Notes under the pieces: generated by a model | What the model was told of the DNA's origin: nothing | The model's input: the letters and a program-made list of their open reading frames with translations, nothing else | The model's database searches: none | Made by a program: the position numbers and the translations under genes | Source of the DNA: Pristiophorus japonicus | Lineage: Eukaryota | DNA: 64,000 bases | Assembly: GCF_044704955.1 (NCBI RefSeq) | Contig: NC_091999.1 | Span: 10,230,001 to 10,294,000, forward strand | Direction of reading: 5' to 3' | Part shown: one piece after another, positions 23,700-55,451 of the stretch | Position numbering within the stretch: the stretch's first letter is position 1 | Layout: the number at the start of each line of letters is the position of its first letter

Positions 23700-23739
23700 A
23701 GTTTTTGTACGAGGTGCTCTATATCTCTGCAGCATTGTG
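23700..23739 (-). other. RSS with 24-bp spacer
   Basis: CACAATG-24bp-ACAAAAACT. Confidence 0.9.
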
Positions 23740-24170
23740 GGCTCCATGGCACAGAAATAAACGGCGGCATCGGAGACAAGCGTCCCGGCGATATTTAAAG
23801 GAACCGTTTTATTTGTTTTGTTCATATCAGCAGAGAACCTGTCTGGTAAACCTGGAGACTTGTCTCCGCCTCCTGAGGTATATCTCTTCAGTAAATATCT
23901 CGGAGCTTCTCCGGGATATTGTACGTACCAGAACAGAGGTAAACCAGCTCTCGAGTAACTGCAGCTCAGGATTGTGTTCTGTCCTTCCTGAACCGTTAAT
24001 TCAGGCGGATCCTGGAGCACGTTATCTTCGCCATTGATTCCTGTAACAAATCAGAGAATGTATCAAAACTTCTGCGTGAATATAACCCATGGAACTCAAA
24101 CTGGTCTTTTAAACATAGACTCACCGGGCAGCACGAATATTATTATGAGGAGGAAACATGGGGAGCACAT
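23740..24170 (-). CDS. TRAV: Intact TCR alpha/delta V segment (F6); leader 24170-24125, V exon 24040-23740
   Basis: MCSPCFLLIIIFVLP/GINGEDNVLQDPPEL...LSC...FWYVQYPG...DAAVYFCAMEP; GT-AG phase-1 intron. Confidence 0.92.
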
Positions 24171-24424
24171 GGTGAATTTTATAAAGTTCGACAGAAAATA
24201 GCAGAATGTTCTCAATATTCTAGTCGTTTATTCAGGATCAAACGTCGATCAGGCTCAGACTTCACTGATTGGGTGACTGAGGGGCGTTTCCCAGGGACAG
24301 GATTGGCTACTAACTCAGAACCGACAATTGTGTGAACCAATCAGTTGCAGACCAATTACTTTCTCTGCCGATTCCTTTTGCTGTCTCTGTCTTTGTCGGT
24401 GTCTCCACCTCTCTCTTTGTTTCG

Positions 24425-26640
24425 GCGATGTTAAGGGAAGGTCGTGTTTGACTAACTTGATTGAATTTTTTGAGAAGGTAACAAGGATTGTCGATGAACC
24501 AGTGTGCATGAATTTTAGCAAGGATTTTGACAATGTGCCACGTGGCAGGCTGAAAAAAAAGTAAAAGCCCATGGGATCGAGGGGAGAGTGGCAAATTGGA
24601 TCAAAAATTGGCTCAGTGGCTGTAAGCAAAGTGTAACAGTTGGCGAGTGCTTTTGCGATTGCGAGGTTGTTTGCAGTGAGGTTCCACCAGGCTCAGTGCT
24701 CGGTCACTTGCTGTCTGTAAAACATATTAACACTTTATGCTTAAATGTAGGGTGCATGATAAAGAGGTTTTCAGATGATACAAATATTGGCCTTGTGGTT
24801 GACAGTGAGGAATATATCGATCAACTGCTCAGTGGAGCAGAAAAAGGGATAATGGAATGCAATCAGCAGAATTGTGACGTCATGCTATTGGGGACGTGCA
24901 ACAAGAAAATGGATCGCATAAAAAATGGAGGTGTGGAGCTACGGAGGGACATAACAACATAAGAAAATAAGAAATAGGAACAGGAGTAGGCTATATGGCC
25001 CCTCGAGCCTGCTCCGCCACTCAATAATATCATGGCTGATCTGATCATGGACTCAGCCCCACTTCCCCACCCATTCCCCATAACCCCTTATCCCCTTATC
25101 TTTTAAGAAATTATTTCTATCTTAAATGTATTCAATGTCCCATCTTCCACAGCTCTCTGAGGCAGCGAATTCCACAGATTTCCAACTCTCCTAGAGAAGA
25201 ATTTCTCCTCATCTCTGTTTTAAATGGGCGGCCCCTTATTCTAAAATCATGCGCTCTAGTTCTGATCTACCTCATCTCTGAATCAACCTTGTCAAGCCCC
25301 CTCATAACCTTATACGTTTCGAGAACACCACATCTCATTCTTCTGAATTCCAATGGGTAGCGGCCCAAACGACTCAACCTTTCCTCACAAGTCAACCCCC
25401 TCATCCCCTGAATTAACCTAGTGACCCTCCAGAACACGTATATCCTTTCTTACATATGGAAAACAAAACTGCACGCAGTATTCCAGGTGTGGCCTCAGCA
25501 ATAACTTCGATTGCTGCAGTAAGACTTCCCTGCTTTTATACTCCATCCCCTTTGCAATAAAGGCCAAGATAACATTGGCCTTCCTGCTCATTTAGTGTAC
25601 CTGCATAAGATCCTTTTGTGTTTCATGCACAAGTACCCCCAGGTCCCACTGCACTGCGGAACTTTGCAATCTTTCCTCATTTAAATAATAACTTGCATTT
25701 TGATTTTTTTTCTGCCAAACTGCATGACCTCACACTTTCTAAGATTATACTCCATCTGCCAAATCTTTGCCCACTAACTTAGCCTGCCTATGTCCTTTTG
25801 CAGATTTTTTGTGTCCGCCTCACACATTGCTTTTCCTCCCATCTTTGTATCGTCAGCAAACTTGGCTACGTTACACTCAGTCCCTTCTTCCAAGTCGTAA
25901 ATATAGAATGTCAATAGTTCGGGTCCCAGTATTGATTCCTGTGGCGCCCTCCTAGTTACGGGAGTGTTTGTCCATAGATCCTTAAAGGTTGAACGATAGG
26001 CCGATAAGTTCTTAAAAGGCATATGGAATGTTTTCCTTTATTAACCGTGGCACAGACTAAAAGAGCAGTGAAGCTATGCTAAAACTGTATACAAAACTAG
26101 TTTGCCCACAGCTTGAGTATTGTATACAGATCTGGTCACCACATTACACGAAATATGTAACTGCATTCGAGGTCGTACAGAGGAGATTTTCAAGGATGTT
26201 GCCAGGACTGTAAATTTTTTAGCTATGATGTAATATTGGAGAGGCTGGGTTTGTTATCTTCTTTCGACCAGAGGAGGCTGAGGCAAAATTTAATTAAGGT
26301 GCATAGAATTATGAGGAGCCTCGAGACAGTAGATAGCAGAGGGTCAATACCAGGGTGGGGGGGAGACAGGATCAAAGTCGTTGGTAGAAGGATTGGAGGC
26401 GAGCTGAGCTAATGTAAATTCACCGAGATGGTGGTGGGGGTCTGAACGCACTACCAGAAAGGTTGGTAGAGGCAGAAACCCTCCTCACTTTGAAAAAGTA
26501 CTTGCATGTTCATTGAAAGCTGTGAACTACAGGGTTGTGAAAATAATGCCGAAAATTAGGAATAGGCAGGCTCGCTATTTGTCAACACGATGGGTCGAAT
26601 GGCCACCCTTGTATGTTGTAATTTATGATTCTATGATTCT
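24425..26640 (+). mobile_element. Degenerate CR1 interrupted by a nested minus-strand CR1
   Basis: KGRSCLTNLIEFFE at ~24435; continues 25965-26640 to an ATTCTATG tail. Confidence 0.8.
24955..25960 (-). mobile_element. Nested CR1 3' fragment
   Basis: AKFADDTK motif; AACATAAG-type tail. Confidence 0.85.
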
Positions 26641-26917
26641 TCCGTGTCTGTGTGTGTCACCCTCTTCCGTTCGCTCTCCCTGCTGTGTGACAATGTGTCT
26701 GAATTTGAATCCCTAGCTTCAACACAACAAGGTGCTCCATTGATAGTATCAGTTATAGTATATAAAACATTGCTGAAGCACAGTAATATATTTAAAATGC
26801 CAGCAATCACAGCAAGATCCAAACGTGATGAAGCACGAATCATGATACGGTTCCACACCCTCTGTATTTGCCGCCGGTTCCTCAGATTTGGAATCGGTGT
26901 TTGTTCATGTCGTTTTG

Positions 26918-29265
26918 AACATACGAACAAAAGAATTAGGAACAGGAGTAGGCCATCCAGTCGCTCGAGCCTGCTCTGCCACTCAACAAGATCATGGCTG
27001 ATCTGGCCGTGGACTCAACTCCACTTACCCGCCCGCTCCCCCTAACCCTTAAGTCCCTTATTGGTTAAAGATCTATCTATCTGTGATTTGAATACATTCA
27101 ATGAGCTAACCTCAACTGCTTCCCTGTGCAGAGAATTCCACAGGTTCACAACCCTCTGGGAGAAGAAATTCCTTCTCGGTTTTAAATTGGCTCCCAGTAT
27201 TTTGAGGCTGTGCCCCCGAGTTCTAGTCTCCCCGATCAGTGGAAACAACCTCTCTGCCTCTATCTTGTCTATCCCTTTCATTATTTTAAATGTTTCTCTA
27301 AGATCACCCCTCATCCTTCTGAACTCTAACGAGTAAAGACCCAGTCTACTCAATCTATCATCATAAGGAAACCCCCTCATCTCCGGAATCAGCCTAGTGA
27401 ATCATCTCTGTACCCCCTCCAAATATAATATATCCTTCCTTAAGTAAGGTGATCAAAACTGCATGCAGTACTCCAGGTGCGGCCTCACCAATACCCTGTA
27501 CAGTTACAGCAGGACCTCCCTGCTTTTATACTCCATCCCTCTCGCAATGAAGGCCAACATTACATTCGCCTTCCTGATTACCTGCTGCAACTGCAAACGA
27601 ACTTTTTGGAATTCATGCACAAGGACCCCCAGGTCCCTCTGCACCACCGAATGTTGTAATTTCTCCCCATTCAAATAATATTCCCTTTTACCTTTTTTTT
27701 TCCCAAGGTGGATGACCTCACTTTTTCCGACATTGTATTCCATCTGCCAAACCTTACCCCATTCGCGTAACCTCTCTAAATCTCTTTCCAGCCTCTCTGT
27801 GTCCTCTACACAACCCGCTTTCCCACTATTCTTTTGTGTCATCTCCAAATTTTGTTACACTACACTCTGTCCCCTCTCCCAGGTCATCTATGTATATTGT
27901 AAACAGTTGTGGTCCCAGCACCGATCCCTGTGGCACACCAATAACCACCGGTTTCCAACCCGAAAAGGACCCATTTATCCCGACTCTCTGCTCTCTTTTA
28001 GCCAGCCAATTCTCGATCCATGCTAATACATTTCCTCTGACTCCGTGTACCTTTATCTTCTGCAGTAACTTGTGTGTGGCACCCTATCGAATGCCTTTTG
28101 GAAATCCAAATACACCACATCCATCGGTACATCTCTATCCACCATGCTCGTTATATCCTGGAAGAATTACAGTAAATTAGTTAAACATGATTTCCCCTTC
28201 TTGAATTCATGTTGCGTCTGCTTGATTGCACTATTCCTATCTAGATGTTCCGCTATTTCTTCCTTAATGTTAGTTTCAACCATGTTCCCCACTACAGGTT
28301 TTTAATTAACTGGCAGAAAGTTACATGCCTTTTTTCTGCCCCCTTTTTTAAACAGAGGCGTTACATTAGCTGCTCTCCAATCCGCTGGTACCTCCCCAGA
28401 GTCCAGAGAATTTTGGTAGATTTTAACGAATGCATCTGCTATAACTTCTGCCATCTCTTTTAATACCCTGGGATGCATTTCATCAGGACCAGGGGACTTG
28501 TCTACTTTGAGTCCCATTAGCCTGTCCAGCACTATCACAATAGTGATAGTTATTGTCTCAAGGTCCTTCCTTCCCACATTCCCGTGACCAGCAATTTTTA
28601 CCATGGTTTTTGTGTCTTCAACTGTGAAGACCGAAGCAAAATAATTGTTTAAGATCTCAGCCATTTCCACATTTCCCACTATTAAACCCCCCTGCTCATC
28701 TTCTAAGCGACCAACATTTATTTTAGTCACTCTTTTCCATTTTATATATCGGTAAAAGCTTTTACTATCTATTTTTATGTTTTGCGCAAGTTTACTTTCG
28801 TAATCTATCTTTCCTTTCTTTATTGCTTTCTCAGTCATTCTTTGCTGTCGTTTAAAATTTACCCAATCTTCTAGTTTCCCACGAATCTTGGCCACCTTAT
28901 ATGCATTGATTTTTAATTTGATCCTCTCCTTTATTTCCTTGGTTATCCACAGCTGGTTATCCTTTCTCTTACCGCCTTTCATTTTCACTGGAATATATTT
29001 TTGTTTGAGTACTATGAAAGCGCTCCTTAAAAGTCCTCCACTGTTCCTCAATTGTGCCACCGTTCAGTCTGTGTTCTCAGTCTATTTTAGCCAACTCTGC
29101 CCTCATCCCACTGTAGTCCCCTTTGTTTAAGCATAGTACGCTCGTTTGAGACACTACTTCCTCAACCTCAATCTGTATTACAAATCAACCATACTGGGAT
29201 CACTCATTCCGAGAGGATCTTTTACTCGGAGATCGTTTATTATTCCTGTCTCGTTACACAGGACC
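26918..29265 (-). mobile_element. CR1 LINE, 5'-truncated
   Basis: ORFs 28302-29060, 27504-27848 and 27042-27380; same subfamily as 704-3040. Confidence 0.95.
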
Positions 29266-29679
29266 GCGCTTCATTCATCAGTTGTGTCTTGGATATTAAA
29301 AATAAACAAAGGGAATTACCAAAATTTAAGCTGAAGTTGCCACTAATACCGGGTATTTCTCGTTCTGCACTAAAGTCTATCATAGTAATGGTAAAAAAAC
29401 AAGAAAATGTGTCATAGTCATTCAACAACATCCACCTGCACTTTGAGAATTCCGTGCTTCCTCAGGCAGATGGCTGTTTACCTCACTTCGCCACCAGAGA
29501 GAGCACCGGCATGTGCCTGCGGTTTCACTGCAGCAAATCATTCGCAAGATCACAAGGCTGTGGAGGATGAGCACGTTGTTCGTCCGATCAAAATTTAATC
29601 TTCCAGAAACTCGACATACTAAAATATGCTGTATCTGTAAAAAGGTGCTTATGAATCTTAATATTCAATGTGATTTGCA

Positions 29680-32600
29680 AACGAATCACAGAAAGTTAAC
29701 ATGCAGTTACAGCAAGCTTTGGAAGGCAAATAGTATATTCATCTTTATTGCAAGGCATTAGAGGAAAAGAGTTTGGAAATCTTGCTGCAAATAAATTGAG
29801 TCTTGGTGAGACCATACCGGGAGCACTGTGTTCAGTTTTGTTCCCCCTATCGGAGGAAGGAAGTACTTGCCATCTAGTAAACAAAGGTTCGCTAGCTTTA
29901 ATTCGTGTAATGAAATGGCTCTTCTCTGCGGAGAGGTTTCATGGAATTAGTTTATTTTCTCTGCTGTTTAGAAGAATGAGAGGTGATCTCATTGAAACGT
30001 ATGAGCTTTTTAGTGGTCTTGATTTGATAGTTGCTGAGATGTTGTTTCCCTTGCCTGGAGAATCCAGAACTAGGGTTCATAAGAACATAAGAACATAAGA
30101 AATGTGACCACGAGTCGGCCATTTGGCCCCTCAGACCTGCTCCACCATTCAATAAGATCATTGCTGACCTGATCATGTGCTCAGCTCTACTTCCCTGTCC
30201 GCTCCCCTTAACCCTTCAGTCCCTTATCGTCCATAAGTATGTCTATCTGCATCTTAAATATAATCAATGGCCCAGCCTCCACCGATCTCCTGGGCAGAGA
30301 ATTCCACAGAGTTAGAACGATTTGAGAGAACAAATTCCTCCTCATCCCAGTTTTAAATGGGCGACACCTTATTCAGAAACTATCGACCCTAGTTTCAGAT
30401 TCTCCCTGAGTGGAAACATCCTCTCTGCATCTACATTTTCGAGACCCCTCAGTATCTTATATATCTCAACAAGAACACTTCTCATTATTTTGAACTCCAA
30501 TGAGTATAGGCTCAACCTTTCTTCATAAGTTAACCCCTTCATCTCAGGAATCAATCTCGTGAAAATTGTCTGAACTGCCTCCAATGCAAGTATATCTCTC
30601 CTTAAATAGAGGAGACCAACACTGTACGCAGTACTCTAGGTGTGGCCTCACCAGAAATCTGTAGAGTTGTAGGAGGTATTCTCTGCTTTTATACTCGACC
30701 CCCTTGCAATAAAGGACAACATGCAATTTGATTTCCTGCTATTTTGCTGTACCTGCATACGAATATTTTATGCTTCATGCACAAGGACTTCCAGGTTCCT
30801 CTGCACTGCAGCAATTTTTAATTTCCTCCATTTAAATAAGAATGTGATTTTTTATTATTTATATCCAAGTGGATAACCTCAAACTTTCCTACATTATAAG
30901 TCATAGTCTCAGAATCCTTGCGGATCAAGGAACAATATCCTTGCACGGATGTTGCGGGTTGCTCGTGCTGATGGGGAGGTTATGAATCATCTTGGCAGGT
31001 GGGTGGGAATCCGAGAGTAGATTCAAAAGGGAGATAAACAACGCTGGAATTCGATAGCAGCAAATGTGAAAATGAAATTGTCGGCAGGGGAAACAAAGGC
31101 TGGCAAATAAATGGAGTTGGCACTGCTAAAGGGTGTATATTCAAAGGAAGTGTGTACGGAACAATGCAGATGAATTGAGAGCACAGGTAGACACTTGGGA
31201 GTATGATATTATAGCTATTACTGACACATGGATGAAAGAAGAACAGGTATGTCAGCTCAACATTTCTGGTTACTGGGTTTTCAGACGTTACAGAGCGGGA
31301 GATAAAAAGGAGGAAGGGGTGCAGCATTGAATTAAAAATCAATTACAGCTGTGAGGAGGGAAGATATGTCGAAGGATCATCCAATAAGACGATATGGGTT
31401 GAATTTAAGAACGAAAAAGGGGCTGGGAGTGCACTGTAGATCCTCAAATAGTCAGAGAGAGACAGAACAGCAAATGTGCAGGCACATTTCTGAGAACTGC
31501 AAAAACTATTGGACAGCAATCTTAGGGGATTTCTACTACCCTAATATTAACTGGGATAGAATAAGTGTGAAAGATATAGAGTGTTCAGATTTCCAAAAAT
31601 GCATTCAGGAGAGTTTTTTTCAGCTAGTATGTAGCAAGGCGAGGAGTGGAAGGGTTCTCCACTTAATTTTATCGAACGAAGCTGGGCAGGTGGAAGGGAT
31701 ATCTTTGGAAGAGCATGTTGGTGATAGTGACCAAAATTCAGTTAGATTCGGGTCGTTATGGAAAAGGACGAAGATAGACAAGGAATAACAATTCTCAATT
31801 GGGGGAAAGCCAAAGTGGATTGGAAATAGTTACTTGAAGGTAAATCATTGTCACAGCAGTGAGAGGCATTCAAGGTGGAGATCCTGAGAGCCAGATTGTT
31901 GCATTAACTAAAAAGAGTGGCACTAACATATCTAGAGCACCCAGGATGTCATGCAGCATAAAGAGTAAGATGCAGAAAAAAAGGAACGTTTATAACAGAT
32001 ACCATGGGCTCAATATGTCAGAAGACCTAGAGGAGTATAGAAATTGCAACCGTGAAATTAAAAAGGAAATTCGTAAAGCAATGAGTTGAAAAAATGATTG
32101 GTAGGTAAATCTAGGAAAAGCCAAATATATTTTATAAATACATTAAGACAAAGAGGATAAAAAAAAGAGTAGGGCGTATTAGAGACAATAAATGTAGTCT
32201 GTATGTTGAGACGGATGTCGTTGGTGTCATTCTTAATGAATACTTTGCGTCTGTTTTCACAACATAGAGGGGTGAAACAGACATTACAATCAGGGAGGAG
32301 GAGTGTGAAATATTAAGTAAACTTTAATAATCACAGCGAGAGAGGAATTGTTAACAGGTTAAGCAGCTTTGAGAGTGTATCAATATCCAGGCTCGGATGA
32401 AATGTATCCCAGGCTGTAACGGAAAACAGATGTGGAAATAACAGAGAGTCTGACCATCATTTTCCTAACCTCTCTGGCTACAGGGAGGACTGGAGGACTG
32501 CTCATGGTGCACCTTTGTTTCAAAAGGGAGAAAGGAACAGATAGAATAATTACATGCCAGTAAGCCTAATCTCGGTGGTGGAAAAATTATTGGAAGAAAC

Positions 32601-34200
32601 TTTGAGGGACAGGACACATCTTCATTGAGAAAGACACGGATTAATCAAGGATAGCCAGCATGGATTTGTTCAGGGAAATTCGTGTCTGATTAATCTGATA
32701 CAATTTTTTGAGGAGATTATAAGAAGGTTCAGTCACGATAGTAGTTTTGATGTCTTGTATTTGGATTGAAGCAAGGCTTTTGATAAGGTCCCACATGGAA
32801 GATTATCACGAAAGTAAACCCCCATATGATTCAAACCAAAGTGGCAAGTTGGATCCAAGTTTGGCTCAGAGGCAGGAAGCAAACGGTAATGATCGTTGGG
32901 TGTTTTGTGTGACTGAAAGGCTGTTTCCAGTGCGGTTCCACAGCAGTCAGCAGCAGGTCCCTTGATTTTTGTTGGAACTTCGATGATTTAGATTTGAATG
33001 TAGGGGCTATGATTAAGAAGGTTTCAGATGATACAAACATTGTTCGTGTGGTTGAGAATGAGGAAGAAATATGTAACCTGCAGGAATATATCGATGAACT
33101 GGTCAGGTGGAAACAACAGTGGCAAATGGAATTCAATCCTGAAAAGCGTGAGGTAATCCATTTGGGGAGGTCAAACAAGGCAAGGTAATACGCATTAAAT
33201 GGTAGGAGACTGAGCAATGTAGAGGAACATAGGGATTTTCGGGTACATTTGCACGGATCCCTGAATGTAGCAGCCCATGCATATAACATGGTTCAGACGG
33301 CATACAGAACACCTGCCTGATTAGAAGGGTACAGTTACTTGCCTTACTGCGTGAACTGTATAAAACACTAGTTACACCACAGCCAGAGTACTATGCACAG
33401 TTCTGGTCACCACATTACATGAACGTGATTGCACTCGAGAGCGTACAGAGATTTGCGAGGATGCTGCCTGGACTGAAGAGTTTTCGCCAGCAGGAAGGAT
33501 CCGATAGGCTGGGTTTGATTTCTTTGGAGAAAGGAAGCTGAGGGGAGACCTTATTGAGGTATATAAAATGAAGGGGGCCTAGATAATGTAAATATGCGCA
33601 CCTATTTCGCTTAGTGGAGGGGTCAATCACCAGCGGGCATAGATTTAAATTAATTGGCAAACGGTTTAGTGGGGATTTGAAGGGAAATGTTTTCACCCAG
33701 TTGGGGTGGTTTTGAACTCACTGCCTGAAAGGTGATAGGAGCAGAAACCCTCATAGCACTTAAAAAGTATTAGGATGTGCTTTTGAATTTTCGAAACTTA
33801 AAAGTCTATGGGCCATGTTTTGGAATGTGGGTTAAGGCTGGATAGTTCTTTGTCATTCAATGCGGAAACAATGGGCCGAAATGGCGTCTTTCCGTGCTTT
33901 AAGTTTCTATGATTCTATGATTCTATGATAAGGGATCAGACATTTAGGTCTGCAGTGAGCAGCAATTGCTTCACTCAGAAGGTTGTGCAACTTTGGTATT
34001 CTCTAACGCAGAGACCTGTGGATGCTGAATGGAGCAGTATGTCCAAGACTGAGATCTATAGATTATTGGGAGTAATGTAATCAAGCGATATGGGATTTGG
34101 GCGGGAATGTGGATGTGATGTGCAAGTTAAGCTATGATCTTATTGAATGCAGGAGCTGGCTAGATGGGAGGTGTAGTCTACCCCTGCTCCTTTTTCTTAT
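29680..34200. mobile_element. Cluster of old CR1 fragments (+29680-30075, -30080-30900, +30910-33930, +33940-34200)
   Basis: Same order and orientation as the old CR1 pieces at 310-7125; EN motif ILGDFYYPNINW. Confidence 0.85.
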
Positions 34201-35280
34201 ATTCTTGCGAAAGCAATTCCATGCATGTGGATTCTTCTAACTGTTCCCAGAGTCCTTTCCAACTGTTTATCTTGCGGTCTCTCGCTGGATTTCTCTCCCA
34301 GTATCTCAATCTGTGTTTCTCGCCCTATTTCTCCCTCAATCTTTTTCACTGTATCTATAACTATTTTTCTCTCTCTGTCTCTTCGTTAATGACAGATTTG
34401 AAAAGTAAGTAGAAAGGCGTTACCTCACGTACTACACCCTTTCAAAAAGGCAGCTCATCACCAACTTCTCAATGGCAATTAGGAATGAGCAACAAATGGT
34501 GGCCAAGCCATCGACCCCCCTCGCCCATGAAATAATAAAAACAACGAATGGGCCACCAGGTAGTGCTCTTTTACGTCAATAGTTTGTATGCAGTGAAAAT
34601 ATCAAAGTGTTTTTTTTTGCATTCCTTTCCCGGGAGATTACATTCAATTAGCTGACGGTTAATGTTGTAGAAGGCCAGTGTAGTCAATACTGTGTTGCCA
34701 TTGCAAACAGCGCATGACACCGATATCCCGCCCCTGCCGCAACAACATATCTCCAAAATCCCCCCATTAATTTCAAGCCCTTCCAATCGAAAACTCACTT
34801 TATCGGCTCTATTTAAATGGTGGAGAAGTACGAGGTTTAACACAGCTAACCTGTGCAGTCCCATCAATACAATAGAACTCCGTATTTTCTGCCCCCTCAG
34901 TTTTCGAAACCAAATCCGAGAGGGAGATCGGTCAGTGTTTATCCCACTGCCCAATCAGACAGAGGAGACCTCTGCTCTCAGTTTGGATGGAGTTACTTTT
35001 GTTAACCGTCAGTACAGCATGCGTTAATGGTAAATTTGGCGGCTTTTGTTCAAGAGGATAAATTTTATACTGTGCAACTAGAGAGCGTGTCAGTAAGAAT
35101 AAAGCATCAGCACTAGCATTCCTCCCTGGCTCTCAGTGAGGACATAATAGATACTTACCATCATACCTGAAAATCACATCGTCGACTGCACATCAGAATA
35201 ATCCCAAAATAATCGAGTTTACAATAATATTCTTAATCCATTAGGATAAACTAGGAACTTGCATAAATTAGGGAAACGCC

Positions 35281-43382: not shown

Positions 43383-43396
43383 CCACCAGGTGGAGC
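43383..43396 (+). promoter_or_regulatory. CTCF motif CCACCAGGTGGAGC
   Basis: Consensus-like match. Confidence 0.5.
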
Positions 43397-43997: not shown

Positions 43998-44410
43998 ATG
44001 GTGCTGTTCATGTTGTGTGAGTTTATTTATCCGATCAGACGCCTGACTTTAGCAATTTCTTATTATCTTGTGTTTGTTGAGTAACTATATTTTTTTCACA
44101 GTCGTTCGGTGCGAGAATCGGAGCTCACATCCTCAGCATGTGGTGTCACGGGAAGGACAACGGGCTGAACTGGACTGCCGGCTCTCCTTTGGTGCAGCTT
44201 GGTACAAACAAGTACTGACAGGGCCGGCCAAATTTATCGGCTCCATATACCAGGGGAATGAGACCACAGGTCGCTTCAAACTGTCCTTTGACCGAGCGAA
44301 GAAGTCCAACTCCATCTCAATAGTTAGCACCGCGGCCAGAGACGCCGGAGTGTATCACTCTGTGGTGCAGACAGGGTGAGGGGAAGAGCGGCTCCAGCTG
44401 CACAATATCT
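43998..44410 (+). pseudogene. V pseudogene, open frame but C104 lost
   Basis: GQRAELDC...WYKQ...DAGVYHS; RSS CAGGGTG(44372)-23-ACAATATCT. Confidence 0.8.
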
Positions 44411-44600
44411 TGTTTGTTGTCGTCTTTCTGCTGCACCATCACTCTTTCCCCGAATCAAGTAATTTAGAAATGCCGGTGTTGTTCAGAAATGTTACTTTCA
44501 CATGTTTAAACTTCCACCTGGTAAAATTACGACATAGAAGAGCTATAACTACCAACATAGTGCATCGAACCATATTAACTAAGGTGTTTTATGTTTGGTT

Positions 44601-44735
44601 NNNNNNNNNNNNNNNNNNNNNNNNNNNNNNNNNNNNNNNNNNNNNNNNNNNNNNNNNNNNNNNNNNNNNNNNNNNNNNNNNNNNNNNNNNNNNNNNNNNN
44701 NNNNNNNNNNNNNNNNNNNNNNNNNNNNNNNNNNN
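44601..44735. other. Assembly gap (N run)
   Basis: Run of N bases. Confidence 1.
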
Positions 44736-44829
44736 GATAGATTAATCCAGTATTCCCATAGCCAAGCATTTTATTACATTCTCCTTGGATGTATCTTCCG
44801 TTTAATTCTTATTCCTGCTTTGGCAGCAG

Positions 44830-45115
44830 CTCCATGTCACTCGGTGAGATTTGAAATATCGGTGTATCGGGAAACTGAAAGACAAACCATATTGCTTCAT
44901 GACAAAACACCGACAATTCACCAATCAGGCTCCTTAGTATGCCAGCTCCATCTTCAGAAACGAACGAGTTGAGCTCACGTTTAAAGTGTCTATGGACCGT
45001 GAGAAATTCTGCACCACTCTCACCATGAACGCGGCGGGGCTATCAAATGTCGCGGTGTATTGCACTGCAGTGAGAAATAGTAAAATAAAGAGGTGAGGAA
45101 CCTATATCAGAACTC
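44830..45115 (+). pseudogene. Degenerate V relic
   Basis: TTLTMNAAGLSNVAVYCTAVR-like 3' end. Confidence 0.4.
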
Positions 45116-45419
45116 AATCATCGCAGGGACTGAGGGAACAACGGCTGTCAGAATCCAGTGTGATACAATTAAAATCAGCAAGAGGTTACTTCAGAAAAGT
45201 AAAGCACGTCATCAGTGCTATTAGTTTTAACAGATTAAAAATATGATTCATTGTTTCGTTGGAAATGCAAGTTTTGTTTTCACAATTTCACCAAAATTAC
45301 ATCCTGATCCAGGCAGAAGCTTAACTTACCCGGTGCTGTGCTTGCCCTGGGAGTCTTTATTTGGATAGTACAGGGGTTGGGGGGCGGGGGGTGGGGGTGG
45401 GGGTGTCGTTATTGTGTAT

Positions 45420-45840
45420 CTAGCCCATGCTGTAGCTGCCCTGGCACTCTTTGATGGGACAGTATAGCGGCAGGTTTTCTCTGTATCGAACACGGGCTGT
45501 AACTGCCCTGCGAGTGTTTGAAGGGACAGTGTTAAGGGAGATTTATCTTAATCAAAAGCTTGCTGTACCTGCCCTGCGACTGTTTGATGAGAGAGTGTGG
45601 AGGGAACTTTACCCGACCTCCAATTCGTGCTTTACCTGTCCCGGGATTGTTTGATGGGACAGTGCACAGAGAGCTCTACTCTGTACATAACCTGTGCTTC
45701 ACCTGCCCTGGGAGTGTTTGACGGGCCAATGAAGTGGGAGCTTGACTCTATATCTTACCCGTGCTGTACCTGTCCTGGAAGCATTTGGTGGGACAGTGTA
45801 AAGCGAGCGTTACTCTCTATCTAACCCATGTTGTTCCTGT
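45420..45840. repeat. ~65-bp tandem repeat (TGTACCTGCCCTGGGAGTGTTTGATGGGACAGTGTAGAGGGAGCTTTACTCTGTATCTAACC...)
   Basis: About 6 diverged units. Confidence 0.8.
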
Positions 45841-46629
45841 GAGGGATTGTTTTATATGAAATGTTGATGAGCAACTTATGCTGACAGTATTTTGATTCAA
45901 AATTCAGTTTAATCGTCAAGAGCTAAACGTTAATCCCCTTTGATTCATGGAGTTACTCTGCTTGGTCTCCATATTGCGTGATTAGGAATGTCGAATGACT
46001 TCCATTTTTATGAAATTAATATTCCACCGTTATGAATAGTGCTATATTGACGTGAAGTCCATCTAGTTCAGGCAGTTAAATTAATATTTGTGTTGGTGAC
46101 CTGGAGATAATAAAAAACATAAACATGAAATTTCTGAATTAATGTAAATACCGAGAAAGCAAAACAAGTACATTAAAATGGCAGAAGTTGCAGTCATAAT
46201 TCTTAACAAACTAATAACAGCTATAACCTGGCATAATAATAATGCAGCATAATCACGCAGCAGTGTTCTTTATAAATTGATAAATAATGTTTCACAGAGC
46301 GGATTCACTCTACGTCCTGTCGCCAAGAATGGTGCTCCAAAACCTCATATTTCTCCAAAACTTACAGATCCGACAGTTTAACGGGTGACAGCTGGGGATT
46401 CCCGGAAACACTTTTATGTCTTATCACCGCACATAGTTTTGTATTTAGGGCAATAGTCTATGCACAAACAATAGGTGTTACGGAGTGGGACAAGAGAATG
46501 ACAGTGAACCCGCGATATTTCTGTATCTTATGTTCCAATGTCACTGCGAGGTCCGATTGGGGAGGGTAACAATTCATCAATCCAAAATTATACTTCACTG
46601 TGTCATAAACAGACAGTTGTGTCGATCTT

Positions 46630-47190
46630 GCACTAGGACCTGCATCCGTTTTTAGTGCACAAGGGCATGTATCTATTTATATTACACAAAGCCCTGTCTC
46701 AGTTTTTACTCTACTAGACCATGTCTTTATTTTTATTACATTAGATCCTGTCGCTGTTTATATTACACAAGACCATGTCTCTGTTTATATTCCACTGACT
46801 CTGTCTCAGTTATTACTATACTCAACCACGCCTCTCTTTATATTACATTGGATCCTGTCGCTATTTCTCTTACGCCAGGCCTGATATCTGTTTATATCAC
46901 ACGAGACCAAGTCTCTATTTATATTGCACGAGGCACTCTCTCTGTTTATATTAAATTAGGTCCTATCTCAGTTATTATTGCATTCGACCGTCTCTGTTTA
47001 TATTACGCCATGCCCTGTCACTCATTATATTACACCAGACCACGTCTCTGTTTATGTTGCATTAGGCCCTGCTCAGTTATTGCTGCACCAGATCCTGTCT
47101 CTGTTTATATTACAGTAGACGTAGTCTCAGTTATTTATGCACTAGACCATGTCATTGTTTGTATTACACTAGACGCTGTCTCTGTTTTTA
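46630..47190 (+). repeat. 27-bp minisatellite (CTAGACCCTGTCTCTGTTTATATTACA)
   Basis: About 20 diverged units; inverted copy at 63555-64000. Confidence 0.85.
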
Positions 47191-48654
47191 AACCATTGTC
47201 TATCAGACCTTCGCTCCCTGTTTCCCTGAAGTTTGACTGCACGTCCTTTACCACCTCATCGGATTCCTTCAGCGCCTCCTGGCGAGGGGAACATCTCCAG
47301 ATGTTTCTAATCAGACCCGAGTACTGTCCGGCATTTTTTTGCTGGTGCTGCGCTCTTTTTCCTCTAAACACCTGGAGTTCACACATGATGTCTCCTGTGA
47401 TTTAATAGGACAGTTGGTTAAGGGACGGAAGAAGTAACGACTGTTAGGAAGGGGGTGGATTGACTTGTTTGAGAATAGGTGCAGATGATGATTAAATTAT
47501 TTCCCTGCCCAATCCCTCTTCCCCGACACCCCCTATCTGGGACCGCCCTCCACCCTAATCCCATTTTATTTTGCTGTCGTGTTCCCGCTCGGTAAGTTTC
47601 AGGGAGTGATTAAGCCCATCAAGTCTGTAATTCCGTTATCGCTTCTCACACCCTTTAAAACACTCTTTAGAGACTCATATCCAATTTACCTATTGATATA
47701 ACTCGTGCAGTTATTCCACAGTTTCAGCTGCTTCTGTGAAAAAATTGATTTTATCATCACAAAAATGTATCTTTCGCCGGATTCACTCGGTTGACATCCG
47801 GGACATGGAGGGCTGCGGCTCCCACAATTTCAATCGGCAGAGAAAAGGCGCTATCTGTGACACGGGTCCCGCTGCACTCTGGCAGAAATGTTCACACATG
47901 CGCACCTCACCAACCTTTCCAGCGACAACTCTATATTTCTCTCTTTTTTTTATCGATTAAGATACCGGAGTTATTTTCGTGTAAATTGACGTGTTTCAAT
48001 CGAGCCATTTTATGTAAAGGAACGGAAGCCATTCACAACGTGTTACGTCACACAAAGATGGCGGACTGTACGTCACAAAATGTTGGCCGCCGGTGTGCCT
48101 GGCAGTGGATGACGACACAATTATTTTCCACGTTACAGCGCCATGATTGACTGTTTCTCCCATTGATTAAGGGTCAGGGGTCACGGGCCGTTTGCTGCAG
48201 AGTACAAGAGTCCCATTTGGTGCGGTCTGTGACCCCTGACTCAGGGCTGAGACTATGGAATATCAGCTCTTGAAAGGGCCTAGCACAGCCCGAGTTTTTA
48301 CTGTTAGTTCTGATACTTGATGGGACTTTGAATAAGAATAAGAATGTGAATAAAATTAAATTTAACTCTTTAAGTATTCCTTCATTCAGTAGGTTGTTGA
48401 ACAGCAAATGATCATAGTGGCTAATAATCGACATTGTGAAGTAGGATCAGTTATCCTCAAGTCGAACATGTTATTATATAATGTGATTTTTAAAATGGAG
48501 ACGATATTGATTTTATTTATTTCTGTATCCCAACATAATAAAGCAGCAGGAATATAGCAGTAACTAATTCATCCGATCAAGCCTTTCCATCATTCTAAAA
48601 AGCTACTGCCAATCTCTGGCAGCAAACAGAAATACATGCCATTGCCTCTTACAG

Positions 48655-51500
48655 CAAACTAATGGGACTAAATGTGAATAGGTCCCCTTTACCCGATGGC
48701 CTGCATCCTATGGTCTAAAGGGGTGGCTGCAGAGATAGTGGATCCAATGCTTGTAATCAACCAAAATTCCCTGGATTCTGGCGAGGCCTCAGTGGACTTG
48801 AAAACCGCAAATGTGATGCCCTTATTTAAGAAAGGAGAGACACAGAAAGCAAGATACTATATCCCAGTTAGCCTAATATCTGTCAAATGCTACAGTCCAT
48901 CAATGAGGACCGAGTAGTAAGTCCTTTAGAAAATCAGAATGCAGACAAGCAGAGGCAGCATGATTTCATTAAAGGGAAATCATGTTTGACAAATTTGCTC
49001 CAGTTCTTTGAGGAAGTAACGGTCAGGGTGGATATAGTGGAACCAATAGATGTTGTGTTTTTGGATTTCCCGAAATCATTCAATACGCTGCCACATAAAG
49101 AGTATTGCATAAGATAAGAGCTCATGGGTTTGGGGGTAATATATTAGTGTTCATAGTGGATTGGATGACTAACAGAAAGTAGAGATTCAAGATAAACCGG
49201 TCATTTTCAGGTTGGCAAACAGTAACAAGTGGGGTGCCAAAGGGATCAGTGCTGGGGCCTCATCTATTTACAATTTGTATTATATACTTGGATGAAGGGA
49301 CCGAGTGTCATATAACCAAATTTATTAATGATATAAAAATAAGTTTGAAAGCAAGATGTGTGGAGGAAGCAAATAATCTACAAAGGAAAAGAGATAGACT
49401 AATTAAGTAGGCAACAATTTGACCAATTGAGTATATTTTGCAAAAATGTGAAGTTATCGAATTTGATAGGAAAAATAAAAAGAGAATTATTATTTTAAAT
49501 TTGGAAAGATTACAAAATGCAATGGTACAGAGGTATCTGGGGGTCCTGGTACAGAAAGCTCAAAAACGTTAGCATGCAGGTACACCAAGTAATTAGGAAG
49601 GTAAGTGGAATGTTACCCTTTATTTTAAGGGGGATAGAATATAAAAGCAGAGAACTCCTGCTACAAATGTACAGTGTATTGGTGAGACCACACCTGGTGC
49701 ATTGCGTACAGTTTTGTCACCTTATTTAAGGAAAGGTACACTTGCATTGGAGACAGTACAGAGATGTTACAGGAGATTGATTCCTGAGATGAAGAGGTTG
49801 TCTGGTGAAGAAATGTTGAGCAGGTTGGGCATGTACATTTGGAGTTGCGAAGACAGAGTTGGTCTATGAAAACGTATATAACTATGAGGGGGCTTATCAC
49901 GGTACATGAAGAGTGGATATTTCCCCTAGTGCCGGTATCTAGAACTCGGGGGCATAGTTTCCGAATAAGTGGTCGCCCATTTAAACATAGAAACATAGAA
50001 ACATAGACAATAGGTGCAGGATTAAGCCATTCGGCCTTTCGAGCCTGCACCACCATTCAATATGATCATGGCTGATCATGCAACTTTACTACCGCATTCC
50101 TGCTTTCTCTCCATACCATTGATCCCTTTAGCCTCAAGGGCCACATCTAAAACACTTTTGAATATATCCAACGTACTGGCCTCAACAACTTTCTGTGGTA
50201 GAGAATTCCACAGGTTCAAAATTCTCTGATTGAAGAAGTTTCTCCTCATCTCGGTCCTAATTGGCTTACCCCTTATCCTTCGACTGTGACCCCTGGTTCT
50301 GGACTTCTCCCACATCGTAACATTCTTCTTGCATCTAACCTGTCCAATCCCGTCAGAATTTTAAATGTTTCTATGAGATCCCCATAATTTTTCTCAATTC
50401 CAGTGAATATAAGCCTCGTCGATGCAGTCTTTCTTCATATGTCAGTCCTGCCATCCGGGCATCAGTCTCGTGAACCTTCGCTGCACTCCCTCAATAGCAA
50501 GAATGTCCTTCCTCAGATTACATTAACATAGTTGTACACAATATTCAAGGTGTGGCCTCACCAAGGCCCTGTAAAACTGCAGTCAGACCACCCTGCTCCT
50601 ATACTCAAATCCTCTCCCTATGAAGGCCAGCGTGCCATTTGGCTTCTTCACCGCCTACTGTAACTGCATGCCAAATTTCAATGACTGATATACCATGACA
50701 CCCAGGTCTCATTGCACCTCCCCTTTTCCTAATCTGTCACCATTCGGATAATATTCTGCCTTCCTGTTTTTGCCACCCAAGTGGATAACCTCACATTTAT
50801 CTACATTATACTGCATCTGCCATGCATTTGCCCACTCACCTAATCTGTCCAAGTCACCTTGCAGTCTCTTAGCATGCTCCTCACAGCTCACACTACCAAC
50901 CAGCTTAGTGATATCTGCAAACGTGGTGATATTACATTCAATTCCTTCCACTAAATCATGAATGCATATTGTGAATAGCTGGTGTCCCAGCACTGAAACT
51001 TGTGGCACCCCACTAGTCACTGCCTGCCATTCTGAAAAGGACCCGTTTATTCCTACGCTTTGCTTCCTGTCTGCCAACCAGTACTCTATTCACGTCAATT
51101 CATTAGCCCCAATACCATGTGCTTTAATTTAGCACACTAATCTCTTGTATGGGACCTTGTAAAAACCTTTTGAAAGCCCAAATACACGACATCCACCGAT
51201 TCTCCCTTGTCCACTCTACTAGTTAAATCGAAAATAAGGAGTAATTTCTTCTCTCAGAGAGTCATGAATCTTTGGGTTTATCTTCCTCAGAGTGCTGTGA
51301 TGTCTCGTTCATTGGATATATTTAAGGTGGAGATATACAGACTTTTGAACGATAAGGGAGTCAAGGATTATGGGGATCGGGCGGGGCAGTGGGGTTGACG
51401 CCAAAATCAGATCTGCCATCATCTTTTTGAATGGCAAAGCAGGCTCGAGAAGCCAAATGGACTACTCCTGCTCCTATTTCTTATTTTCTTATGTTTTATG
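48655..51500 (+). mobile_element. Old CR1 interrupted by a nested CR1
   Basis: RT motifs 48696-49980; continues 51223-51500. Confidence 0.85.
49986..51221 (-). mobile_element. Nested CR1, 5'-truncated
   Basis: AAACATAG tail; TTAAA on both flanks, a possible target-site duplication. Confidence 0.9.
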
Positions 51501-52079
51501 TTTTCCTTTCTTATTAATTGTCGTGAGTTCGCTGTGGATCCCAGAATTTATTGGCCATTCCCCAGATTCCCCTTGATAAGCTGATGGTCGTCCTTTTTCT
51601 TGGACTGCTGTATTACTGCTCTTTGCACTCGTTTGATACAATTGACTGGCTTACTGGGCCACTTCACCGAACAGTCAAGAGGCAACCATGTTGTGTATGG
51701 CACTGGAGTTCCATACGGGACAGAGCCGGATAAAGTAACAGTTTTCCTTCCTAATTAAGGGCGTTAATCATGCAGTTGCGGTTTTACCACAATCCGAGTT
51801 TCACGATCATTTTTACCAATAACTGCTTCGTATTTATTTGCAAAATATCTGAATTCAAATTTATAAACTAGCAGAGTAGAAGTTGAACAATCGCACTCTA
51901 GATTATTAGCTCACACCTAGTGATTATTTGTTGAGTTACAGAACGCACAGGCCTTAAAACGTCATTTTTGCTGCATCAATCAGTCGATATGACAGTGTCA
52001 AGAGTATTATAAATAGAGAGTTGGTTTAGTGCAGTCATAACTCAGACCGGTTCTAATATAATGTAAAACGAGATATTTA

Positions 52080-52420
52080 AGGAGAGACAGATGGAGAGGC
52101 ATAGATAGAGAAACAGATTGAATTAAACAGAGGGGAAGAGAGTGAGAGATAACGAGAGAGTGAAACAGTGCAAGATTGAGACAGAGAGAGAGAGACAGAG
52201 CGAAGAATAGAGAGAGAGAGAGCGAGAGAGATGCAGAAAAAGGGACATTGTGAGAGACAGAGAGACAGACAGAGAGGGAAATCGGCAGACACAGACGCGG
52301 AGCCAATGAGATATATACAGTGAGAATCAGATGGAGACGAGAGACACAGAGATAGTGAAAAAGATAGACAGTGAAATAGAGTGACAGAGAAAGGATCACA
52401 GCGAGAGAAATAGAGTGATC
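52080..52420. repeat. GA-rich degenerate microsatellite
   Basis: (GA)n and (GACA)n runs. Confidence 0.9.
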
Positions 52421-52734
52421 AGCTGAGGCAAATGTTTTACATAGTTAAACGATAAAAAGGAAGAAGAAATATCAAATAATTATGGATAACGACTAGAGAC
52501 AAGGCGTGAGATGGGGCAGGCATGCATGGAAAGGGCATTGAAAAAAATGTGCCACAGATGCCTTTGCGCAGTGTTTTTCTATTTTAAAAGTTCTTTAAAT
52601 TCACCAGCTCATGTAATTAAACCGGTGAACGTCACCGATTCTTGTTAAGCATTTTGTTTTATTTGACTTTTAAGAAAGTCCCTGTGAATCTCACTGTGGA
52701 GGCTGAATTATCGCTTCTGTTTAGCAGTTTGAGA

Positions 52735-52747
52735 GCGCCCTCTGGTG
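52735..52747 (-). promoter_or_regulatory. CTCF motif next to an RSS
   Basis: CACCAGAGGGCGC, 23 bp downstream of the nonamer. Confidence 0.65.
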
Positions 52748-52770
52748 AGCACTGTGGAACTCCCAGTGTG

Positions 52771-52810
52771 GGTTTTTGTACGGGGTCCGCTATATCTCTG
52801 CACCAGTGTG
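52771..52810 (-). other. RSS with 24-bp spacer
   Basis: CACACTG-24bp-ACAAAAACC. Confidence 0.9.
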
Positions 52811-53257
52811 GGACTCATGGCACAGAAATAAACGGCGGTGTCTGAGATCAAGGCCTTGCTGATCGTTAGCTCAGTAAACTTAGTCGTTTTATGAAACGCA
52901 GAAGAGAATCGGTCAGTGAAGTCGGGGTTTCGCTTTACGGCCGTTCCAATAAGGTAAAACACGTACTGTGGGGGCTGCCCGGGGTGTTGACTGTACCAGA
53001 ACACATAAGGACTAGGTTTGCTGGTTTTCAAGGTGCAGTTTAGTGTCACATTACATTCCTCTTCAACCATCATTTCGAGAACTGACTGTTCCACTGTGTC
53101 TTGTTGGGTCCATTCTAAAATAAAATAATAGCAATTGTAATCATCGCATTATCACTTTACCAATAATAACATCAGGGGCAGAATTATTATTTTTACAAAG
53201 GAAATACTTACTGAGAAGTGATATAATGATGAAGAGCGGTGCGAGACGGTTCTACAT
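52811..53257 (-). pseudogene. V segment (F4): intact V exon 53114-52811, leader with ATG TAG
   Basis: QDTVEQSVLEMMVEEECNVTLNC...FWYSQ...DTAVYFCAMSP; leader M*NRLAPLFIIISLL. Confidence 0.85.
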
Positions 53258-53871
53258 GATGCTCCCTGAGTCTCTAACTCTGCAGTCCTGGAAATTCTCT
53301 GTCGGAGCAGCAATACAGATCCCTGCTACACTGCACTGCTGGTCCAACCAATGTGAAGCAGGGAACAGCGACAGCGATCTCTCCAATAACACAGGGCAGG
53401 CAAGGCGGGGCAGAGCGAGAGCAGCAAATGGAAGCTGTGGGCGTCGCTGTCACCATAAGTGTTTTCATACGTGGGATCCATCTGTGAGAACAGAATTCAG
53501 AACAATGTCTCCTTCTCAAATTATACAACTCTTCCTCTCGATAAGAGCTGCGTTAATTTCACATTTATTACAAACTCGGGGCAAGGAGATTGGCGACAGG
53601 AATTGCAAAATTATTACATTATTCGACAGTTACCGAAAATTTCATCAGTGAAATAGGTTAAAACTAGGTGCTGAAATAAGCGATGGGAAAGAGAACAAAC
53701 TGTGAGGAAAAGTATACCATTACTGAGCTGAAATGTGAAATCAAAAGGAATTTCATCCTAATTTATATTGAATAATATAATTGCAGATTGATCACTGTCC
53801 TTTGACTGAACTGGCCGTTTTCGGATCCGATTTGACTATTACCCAATCTGTTCAGACTTTGATCAGTGAGG

Positions 53872-54135
53872 AGAAGTTGCACGAGAGGGGAGTTATCCTC
53901 CAAACTATGGCCCGTAGCACAGCAATAGATTCTGGTATCCACAAACTCTGCCTGGCCGAAGCCCAGTGTGCTCAGACATTGATCCCGGTTGGTACGGATC
54001 TTAAATCGGATTGGTGGCATTCTTCTTTAAATCCACAATGGATGTATCTCGGGGCCGCGCTCACCAATCGGCTATACCAACAGATGTTGTCGGTCATGCG
54101 GAACACGCACTGGATTCTGACAGGATTTGGTTCCG
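53872..54135 (-). pseudogene. Degenerate V pseudogene
   Basis: VRIQC...ICWYSR...; DTRIYCCATG; RSS-like CATAGTT-22-GCAACTTCT. Confidence 0.6.
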
Positions 54136-54908
54136 CTGCGAAATCACAGGCAGGTAGAGAAATCTGGGCCAAACTCGGAGCAACTTTCGACAAAATTTAA
54201 GAATTACATGGAATCTACAGCATAGAAACAGCTCATAGAATCAGTGGATATTGGGAAATAGAGAAGAGAAAGATTTAAAGAAAGTGAGTATGGAACAGAT
54301 TTCGAAACATAAGGTAGAGGAAAAGAAAGTGAAAGTGTGAAAGAAAGAATGAAAAAGACAAAGAGACAAAGCTTTTCAATAATGAGAGTGTAGAGGACAG
54401 CAAATGAGAAAAGGGGGAACGAGAAATGAAAGAACGTGATAAGCAACGAGAGAAGGACAACGCGAATAGGTAAAACATGTTCTTTCCTTTACATTCACTC
54501 ACATTTCAGTTCTGCCTATTTAGCCAGTTGAATTGTCTGAAACAAAAGTCTCACATAATAACCCGCTGGAAACCACCCTATCGATGAATTCACACTTTCC
54601 TCTACCCATTATCCTGAATTCCTCAGAGTCACTGTCAGAGGGCGCCGGGGTCACATGTTTCTCACCGTTACCACCCGGAAATTCTAGAGACAAATCATGC
54701 AGTAACACTGCCCAAGGCAGCCCAGCCCACAGCTTCCATTTGCCGCTCTCGCTCAGACCCACCTTGCCAGCCCCGTGTTATTGTAGAGATTGCTGCCGCT
54801 GCTCCCTGTTTGCATTGGTGCAATCAGCATTGCAGTGGCGCGGGGATCTGTAATTCTGCACCCCCAGACGATTTTCCGCACTGCAGAGTTACAGACTGAG
54901 GGAGCATC

Positions 54909-55451
54909 ATGCGGAACCGCCTCACAGCAGTCCTCATCAATATATCACTTCGCAGTAAGTCTTTCCTTGTCAGTAAAAATCCATTCTCCCCTGGACTGCT
55001 GTAACTCAGCTGTTATTATTGGTAAAATGACATTGATACTTATTTTGATTTGAATTATGGTGATTATGATGATGAAGATGGTGAAGATTACAATAATTTT
55101 ATTTTAGATTGGAGCCACCAAGACAGAGTGGAACAGTTGCTCCCTGAAATGACAATTGAAGAGCAAAGTAATGTCACACTAACCTGCACCTTCAAAACAC
55201 GCGTTACTGCCCCTTATGTGTAATGGTACATTCAGCACGCCGGGAAGCCTCCACAGTGCGTGCTTCATCTTCTCGGAGGCGATGTATACAGGAAAAATGA
55301 TATCACTGATCGATTCTCCTCTACGTTTACTAAAATTAACAAGATTACCGAGCTCACAATCGGCAAAGCCCTGATTTCCGACACCACCGTGTATTTCGGT
55401 GCCATGGAACCCACACTGCTACAGAGTTATCGTGCATCCCTGACAAAAACC
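54909..55451 (+). pseudogene. V pseudogene (F4)
   Basis: Leader 54909-54954; exon from 55108; TAA before WY; YFG replaces YFC; RSS CACACTG(55412)-24-ACAAAAACC. Confidence 0.9.

What the first reader, a model, noticed from the sequence alone, without database searches (positions are those of the whole stretch)
23700..55451. A class of RSS with a 24-bp spacer
Seen: RSSs at 23700-23739, 52771-52810 and 55412-55451 all have a 24-bp spacer (e.g. CTGCAGAGATATAGAGCACCTCGT) with consensus or near-consensus nonamers. The other well-preserved RSSs in the window have 23 bp. Three occurrences argue against sequencing error. These are the same three RSSs that carry the CTCF motif. Known: RAG tolerates 23+/-1 bp at lower efficiency. 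Inference: a weaker spacer may be offset by a strong nonamer and the CTCF site.
Basis: partly seen in the sequence, partly recalled or inferred. Interest (0 to 1): 0.7.

Follow-up and report, generated by a model that had tools for sequence, protein, structure and literature searches.

The report
Shark TCR genes with 24-bp signals
About a third of the open T-cell-receptor variable segments in this likely shark locus carry a DNA-cutting signal one base longer than the textbook 23; it sits on one inherited tail that was likely swapped between two gene families and is likely cut by the ordinary recombinase, so it is a tolerated variant rather than a new kind of signal.

Summary
The three 24-bp spacers are real, and the class is large. 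In 1.86 Mb of this TCR alpha/delta locus, 55 of 175 readable V signals and 33 of 103 open V exons have 24 bp. They are not independent: 53 of the 55 lie in two V families (A, B) that are about 40% identical as proteins yet share a ~175-bp tail (end of FR3, RSS, CTCF-type motif). The tail is far younger than their V bodies (distance 0.25 versus 0.91), so it was likely exchanged. A horn shark gene model also reads as 24 bp; bamboo shark and skate homologs read as 23. One contig from an RNA-like run fits a 24-bp V and leaves germline three bases before the heptamer, a likely coding joint. The compensation idea is unsupported: heptamers are worse, the 23-bp sister family has perfect nonamers, the CTCF motif also follows 23-bp signals, and 22-bp families lack it. 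Only one of the three window genes is intact. Used 24-bp spacers are known singly in humans; my searches found no paper on a family-wide class. The scan noted the same tail before in other genomes.

The parts
24125..24170 (-). leader exon of family-A V gene (open, GT donor at 24124)
   Evidence: a spliced contig of a close family member in run X5 removes a net 84 nt at this intron
23740..24040 (-). family-A TCR alpha/delta V exon, open, ends YFCAME; the only intact gene of the three
23700..23739 (-). RSS: heptamer 23733-23739, 24-bp spacer 23709-23732, nonamer 23700-23708
23662..23675 (-). CTCF-type motif, 24 bp behind the nonamer, same sense as the V (binding untested)
23601..23776 (-). shared ~175-bp tail (end of FR3 to about +150 from Cys104) common to families A and B; limits approximate
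53212..53257 (-). leader exon of family-B2 V gene with a stop as codon 2 (pseudogene)
52811..53114 (-). family-B2 V exon, open, ends YFCAMS
52771..52810 (-). RSS with 24-bp spacer and consensus nonamer
52735..52748 (-). CTCF-type motif, 22 bp behind the nonamer (2-bp deletion shared with one paralog)
54909..54954 (+). leader exon of family-B1 V gene, head to head with the B2 gene
   Evidence: read from the sequence
55108..55411 (+). family-B1 V exon, pseudogene (stop 55221-55223, Cys104 to Gly)
55412..55451 (+). RSS with 24-bp spacer and consensus nonamer
55476..55489 (+). CTCF-type motif with 2 mismatches, 24 bp behind the nonamer

Best explanation
These are two-turn (23-type) recombination signals with one extra spacer base, carried on a ~175-bp tail shared by two distant V families of a TCR alpha/delta locus; the tail was likely passed between the families by gene conversion or unequal crossover and then multiplied by duplication, and RAG likely cuts it with ordinary 12-bp J or D partners inside its known tolerance of one base. 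The extra base likely arose once, in family B, before the split from the horn shark lineage, and persists because it costs little. The CTCF-type motif is likely older than the extra base and likely aids accessibility as at mouse proximal VH genes, but it is not a specific repair for the long spacer. Shown: lengths, distribution, mosaic distances, open frames. Inferred: exchange, its direction and age, RAG cleavage, CTCF binding.
For: Distribution: 53 of 57 readable signals in A1/A2/B1/B2 are 24 bp, against 2 of 118 elsewhere. A 35-letter pattern of the signal hits only C23 9.99-11.68 Mb (32 places) and contig C645 (2), with 0 in the reversed control. Mosaic: A1-B2 distance is 0.25 (0.20-0.31) in the non-coding tail, 0.91 in the V body, 1.00 in the far flank and 1.31 upstream, while within families the tail evolves as fast as its neighbours (0.12-0.18). 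The A-B branch is about 0.76 in the V tree and about 0.06 in the tail tree. It is the only flank sharing between non-sister families. Function: 33 of 103 open V exons are 24 bp, and 30 of the 33 have an open leader with GT donor. Pairwise dN/dS is 0.57 (A1) and 0.58 (B2), within the 0.40-0.76 of 23-bp families. Run X5 holds a spliced family-A contig and a 170-nt contig that follows a B2 exon to 3 nt before the heptamer and then has 15 unaligned letters. Its 8 differences match exactly 1 of 14 close paralogs, C23:10,914,172, which has a 24-bp spacer; germline would have matched 14 of those 15 letters. Partners: the 46 J segments with FGxG found all have 12-bp spacers, one reading 11 equally well. 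Age: read-through gene models give 24 bp in Heterodontus francisci P0004 and unnamed P0070 (frame rule checked on own genes). [quoted passage not shown] In this locus 22 bp is fixed or dominant in F14, F20 and F57.
Against: Rearrangement rests on one contig of depth 3.7 whose 15 junction letters were not displayed, so no J was seen; that X5 is RNA is inferred from the spliced contig. None of 150 protein hits with A, B or S30 as best match at 45% identity or more showed a J motif. AU tests did not reject congruent topologies (p 0.42 and 0.44), so exchange rests on branch lengths. B1 has dN/dS 0.91 (6 genes). A-type homologs with the same CAME end exist with 23 bp (P0089; skate P0012), so the tail was shared early and a single transfer is too simple; direction is not tested. 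PMC7753069 also cites Akira 1987 for a drastic drop with altered spacer lengths. Cross-species lengths come from single protein models, not DNA. The CTCF core is more conserved than its flanks (1.21 versus about 2.1 changes per site, p 0.017), which leaves room for a supporting role.
Confidence: 0.7

Rival explanations
1. Compensation: the 24-bp spacer is a real handicap and survives only because a strong nonamer and the adjacent CTCF site make up for it.
For: Nonamers are nearer consensus in 24-bp genes (0.61 versus 1.37; Mann-Whitney p 0.004 on a stricter set of 33 versus 44, but copies are not independent). The CTCF core is conserved. A flanking CTCF site raises VH use in mouse (PMC7930373, passage). 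The only fixed 24-bp lineage is the main CTCF-bearing lineage.
Against: One origin, so n = 1. Heptamers are worse (0.97 versus 0.58). The sister 23-bp family has perfect nonamers and no motif. The motif occurs behind 23-bp signals. 22-bp families manage without it.
Confidence: 0.14
2. Shark RAG has a broader or shifted two-turn optimum (22-24), or this spacer sequence bends so that 24 is as good as or better than 23; the length is then kept or favoured.
For: 45 of 103 open V exons are 22 or 24 bp. Only 5 of 64 scored A/B genes show 23, two of them by a base lost in the nonamer, and revertants have not spread. 24 bp also appears in a horn shark model.
Against: Length changes in the spacer (5 at 23, 1 at 25) are about as frequent as in the neighbouring nonamer-to-CTCF stretch (8 genes), as expected without special selection on 24. 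23 remains the mode across families. A bamboo shark B homolog reads 23.
Confidence: 0.12
3. The 24-bp genes are poorly or never rearranged and were spread passively by segmental duplication.
For: 2 of 3 window genes are broken; 36 of 73 A/B segments fail the strict intact test.
Against: Other families are broken more often (47 of 194 pass the strict test, which undercounts some of them). dN/dS below 1 in A1 and B2, a spliced transcript and a likely coding joint.
Confidence: 0.03
4. Assembly or sequencing artefact.
For: None found.
Against: 60 genes with diverged spacers of the same length (53, 7 more), no spacer indel listed in short-read contigs, and the same length in another species' model.
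Confidence: 0.01

Closest known systems
23-RSS of TCR alpha/delta V segments (12/23 rule)
   Same: CAC heptamer 11 nt after Cys104 (position 15, as for zebrafish Va in PMC10322711, passage), consensus-type nonamer, 12-bp J partners in the same locus
   Different: spacer 24 bp, fixed across two families and a third of open V exons
[quoted passage not shown]
   Same: one-base departure on segments that still rearrange (PMC2212390 and PMC7753069, passages)
   Different: in the passages read these are mentioned as exceptions, and human VH 24-bp spacers occur only in 7 pseudogenes; here it is a family-wide, cross-species state
RSS-associated CTCF sites of mouse proximal VH (7183, Q52, VH81X) and human IGHV
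   Same: consensus-type motif at a fixed short distance behind the nonamer, in the V's sense, inherited by clade (PMC6746451, PMC7930373, passages)
   Different: TCR locus of a cartilaginous fish; 24 bp away rather than 17-19; V genes lie on both strands so the motifs do not all face one way; binding untested

Membership tests
23-RSS (two-turn signal) | heptamer beginning CAC directly at the V coding end | tested here: met
23-RSS (two-turn signal) | A-rich nonamer near ACAAAAACC | tested here: met
   0-1 mismatch in 31 of 33 open genes
23-RSS (two-turn signal) | spacer of exactly 23 bp | tested here: not met
   24 bp; no 23 register fits. Filed therefore as a variant, not a canonical member
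23-RSS (two-turn signal) | spacer within 23 plus or minus 1 | tested here: met
   tolerance per PMC2212390 and PMC7753069 passages
23-RSS (two-turn signal) | rearranges with a 12-RSS partner in vivo | tested here: inconclusive
   one likely coding joint, J letters not seen; J signals are 12 bp
23-RSS (two-turn signal) | cleaved by RAG1/2 in a 12/23-coupled assay | not testable with these tools
   needs a substrate assay
TCR alpha/delta V segment | leader, V exon with Cys23/Trp41/Cys104, upstream of D-delta, J-delta and a J-alpha cluster on the same contig | tested here: met
   a named homolog is annotated TCR alpha-like. The delta/alpha labels of the J clusters are my reading of their arrangement; C exons were not located
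RSS-associated CTCF element | match to CCASYAGRKGGCRS at a fixed distance and in fixed sense to the V | tested here: met
   consensus first recalled, later seen in PMC6746451
RSS-associated CTCF element | CTCF occupancy and effect on V use | not testable with these tools
   only conservation was measured

The most novel reading that the evidence does not exclude
Sharks run a standing 12/24 recombination class: a portable RSS-plus-CTCF module that was grafted between V families, that supplies up to a third of the alpha/delta V repertoire, and whose CTCF site or a relaxed shark RAG makes 24 bp as efficient as 23. The 23-bp optimum would then be lineage- and context-dependent.
Probability: 0.2. 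Interest if true: 0.72.

Novelty: new variant of a known kind. Interest (0 to 1): 0.45.

Why it matters
It is a natural, large-scale test of how strict the 23-bp arm of the 12/23 rule is in the oldest lineage with RAG-based immunity, with matched 22-, 23- and 24-bp families in one locus. It suggests that signal and chromatin-anchor modules can move between V families apart from the coding exon. In practice, annotation that demands 23 bp would drop or downgrade about a third of the open V segments here.

Tried and rejected
Alternative 23-bp register: rejected. Mobile repeat as source of the tail: pattern hits are confined to this locus and C645. Within the locus 65 of 82 flank hits sit at A1/A2/B1/B2 genes and 3 at B33; the other 14 lie at degenerate A/B genes or are RSS-less copies. 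Compensating 11- or 13-bp J partners: not found. Orientation bias of intact A/B genes: none (p 0.63). AU tests of discordance: uninformative. Rearranged cDNAs in protein collections: no candidate for family A, 3 gene models for B, 11 hits for a B alignment of which those read were genomic-type models, no J-joined hit among 150. No RNA holder was listed by the run search; runs X7 and X8 gave no contig over the coding end, which says nothing either way. PDB search gave only generic V domains; the Atlas gave no result. The leader finder failed on several 23- and 22-bp families (30 of 103 genes outside the 24-bp set got no model), so leader status is compared for 24-bp genes only. Literature searches found no report of a 24-bp class in shark TCR. 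The library lacks most subscription papers; Ramsden 1994 was not held; 8 of 19 supplements of PMC10322711 were not searched and could bear on this.
Full report
Observation. All three signals are present as described, each with a 24-bp spacer and a nonamer at 0-1 mismatch. The other V-linked signals passing the same filter in the window are 23 bp. Each of the three is followed by a CTCF-type 14-mer after 22-24 bp. They cannot be read as 23-bp signals: at 23 the nonamer averages 4.0 mismatches, and a shifted heptamer loses CAC in 33 of 33 open genes. Only the gene at 23.7 kb is intact; the 52.8-kb gene has a stop as second leader codon and the 55.4-kb gene has an internal stop and lacks Cys104.

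Setting. The window lies at G000:C23:10.23-10.29 Mb. About 0.5 Mb to the left lie a D segment with 12/23 signals, two J segments and a cluster of 44 more J segments, which I read as the delta and alpha parts of a TCR alpha/delta locus; all 46 J signals are 12 bp, one reading 11 equally well. The closest named proteins are from sharks (Heterodontus francisci 77%, Scyliorhinus torazame 59%), so the host is likely a shark. I assembled 9.62-11.484 Mb contiguously and 11.604-11.694 Mb separately. The 120 kb between them and anything beyond were not read; at least one more signal lies there.

Census. Of 335 V-like clusters, 267 reach Cys104 and 175 have a readable signal: 96 at 23, 55 at 24, 19 at 22, 5 other. 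By family, 53 of 57 readable signals in A1, A2, B1 and B2 are 24 bp, against 2 of 118 elsewhere. Seven more A/B genes in the distal 90 kb are all 24 bp with the motif at +24. Among 103 open V exons, 57 are 23, 33 are 24, 12 are 22 and 1 is 21. Of the 33, 30 have an open leader with a GT donor, 1 has a leader stop, and 2 show a GC donor. A 22-bp spacer is fixed or dominant in F14, F20 and F57, so length varies by family in both directions.

One origin, carried on a tail. Families A and B are about 40% identical as proteins. A 23-bp family without the motif, S30, groups with A (support 100/100). A and B are 51-67% identical over the V body but mostly 73-85% from 25 nt before Cys104 to about +150; A1 and S30 show the reverse, 69-83% in the exon and about 50% behind the signal. 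Corrected distances for A1-B2 are 0.91 (V body), 0.25 (non-coding tail), 1.00 (far flank) and 1.31 (upstream), while within families the tail (0.12-0.18) is no slower than other parts. Slow evolution therefore does not explain the likeness; exchange by conversion or unequal crossover is the inference. It is the only flank sharing between non-sister families. Against this: AU tests did not reject congruent topologies (p 0.42, 0.44), and conversion cannot be told from crossover, because far flanks are unrelated even between B1 and B2. The signal pattern occurs only in this locus and on contig C645 (34 hits, 0 in control), so it is no dispersed repeat.

Other species. Gene models that read through the signal reveal the spacer by frame; on own genes, 24 bp gives TK, 23 gives QK and 22 gives KN after the same number of codons. 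B-type models read 24 in H. francisci (P0004, which also runs into a CTCF-like stretch) and in unnamed P0070, and 23 in Chiloscyllium punctatum (P0069) and unnamed P0132. A-type models read 23 in unnamed P0089 (with a CTCF-like stretch) and probably in Leucoraja erinacea (P0012). The tail with its motif is thus likely older than the extra base and was likely homogenised more than once. The extra base likely predates the split from the horn shark lineage, which suggests B to A as direction. These are single protein models, not DNA. In DNA run X6 (another organism), one contig shows a one-base spacer deletion at depth 191 of 2064 and no other spacer indel is listed.

Use. Pairwise dN/dS is 0.57 in A1 and 0.58 in B2, inside the 0.40-0.76 of six mainly 23-bp families; B1 gives 0.91 on 6 genes (pairs are not independent). 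Run X5 holds a family-A contig lacking a net 84 nt at the leader intron, so it is likely RNA. It also holds a 170-nt contig that follows a B2 exon to 52814, three bases short of the heptamer, and continues with 15 unaligned letters. Its 8 differences match exactly one of 14 close paralogs, C23:10,914,172, a 24-bp gene with a GC leader donor, whose germline continuation would match 14 of 15 letters. This is a likely coding joint, but it is one contig at depth 3.7 and the junction letters were not shown. No J-joined protein was found among 150 profile hits.

Compensation. Open 24-bp genes have better nonamers (0.61 versus 1.37 mismatches) and worse heptamers (0.97 versus 0.58) than 23-bp genes; the sister family S30 has perfect nonamers with 23 bp and no motif. 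The motif also follows 23-bp signals in F46 and F47 and in revertants, and 22-bp families lack it. The CTCF core changes less than its flanks (17 changes in 14 sites versus 176 in 85, p 0.017), so it is likely under selection, but nothing ties it to spacer length. Among 64 scored A/B genes the spacer reads 23 in 5 and 25 in 1, and the nonamer-to-motif distance differs in 8 (one more row was misparsed): no sign that 24 is specially guarded, nor that 23 is sweeping back.

Known work. [quoted passage not shown] PMC7753069 (passages) cites both a moderate and a drastic effect of one-base changes; I did not read those primary papers. PMC6746451 and PMC7930373 (passages) describe CTCF sites 17-19 bp behind mouse VH nonamers and their effect on VH use. 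PMC5931798, PMC12227049 and PMC10322711 (passages; 11 of 19 supplements of the last searched) do not contain the word spacer in their main text. PMC2435157, PMC2193808 and PMC13433984 (passages) and PMC2186579 (listing; the held text had no match) added nothing on this. Nine searches found no report of a 24-bp class in shark TCR; the library is incomplete. The scan's own notes describe the same tail, 24-bp spacer and motif in other genomes. They are unreviewed and no support; my reading was stated before seeing them.

Verdict. A real, family-wide, cross-species 23+1 variant on a likely exchanged RSS-CTCF tail; likely functional within known RAG tolerance; compensation not supported. New variant of a known kind, interest 0.45.

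Noticed in passing
G000:C23, family F14 (7 copies, e.g. 10,404,465 and 10,488,007) near family F45 (e.g. 10,396,664 and 10,495,819): V exons ending YYCKAQ with 22-bp spacers lie about 8 kb from F45 exons. By recall they look like NAR-TCR V plus supporting delta V, scattered among ordinary V genes; label not tested.
   Followed up: no
window 52811-55411 and many places in the locus: B2 and B1 genes recur as head-to-head pairs about 2.5-3 kb apart inside larger duplicated blocks on both strands.
   Followed up: no
C23:9,898,420; 9,962,209; 10,127,452; 11,477,337 (F46, F47): A second lineage has a perfect CTCF consensus match 42 bp behind a 23-bp signal; one more, weaker, at 11,671,397.
   Followed up: partly
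C23:10,620,930; 11,185,862; 11,372,996; 11,434,255 (B33): B-type pseudogenes appear to have lost the RSS and CTCF motif by a deletion ending at a heptamer-like word about 115 bp downstream.
   Followed up: no
window 52686 (-) and 55538 (+): A weak second RSS-like word pair (22 and 21 bp spacing) lies in the tail about 125 bp behind the true signal; the nonamer side is not conserved across the families.
   Followed up: partly
C23:10,079,716; 10,376,003; 10,531,288; 10,794,949; 10,824,429; 11,089,254: Copies of the post-nonamer part of the tail without V or RSS lie about 1 kb behind F58 pseudogenes, with a degraded CTCF motif.
   Followed up: no
window 15382 and 19763 (family F49): Open V exons with Leu in place of Trp41, several also lacking Cys23, with intact leaders and dN/dS 0.50.
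   Followed up: no
G000:C645:1,037,179 and 1,074,734: A separate contig holds two 24-bp signals resembling those at C23 11.67 and 11.65 Mb; possibly an alternate haplotype or a duplicate.
   Followed up: no
C23:9,772,904-9,815,313 (behind F56 genes): An inverted RSS-like element faces the V signal about 110 bp downstream in four D-proximal genes.
   Followed up: no
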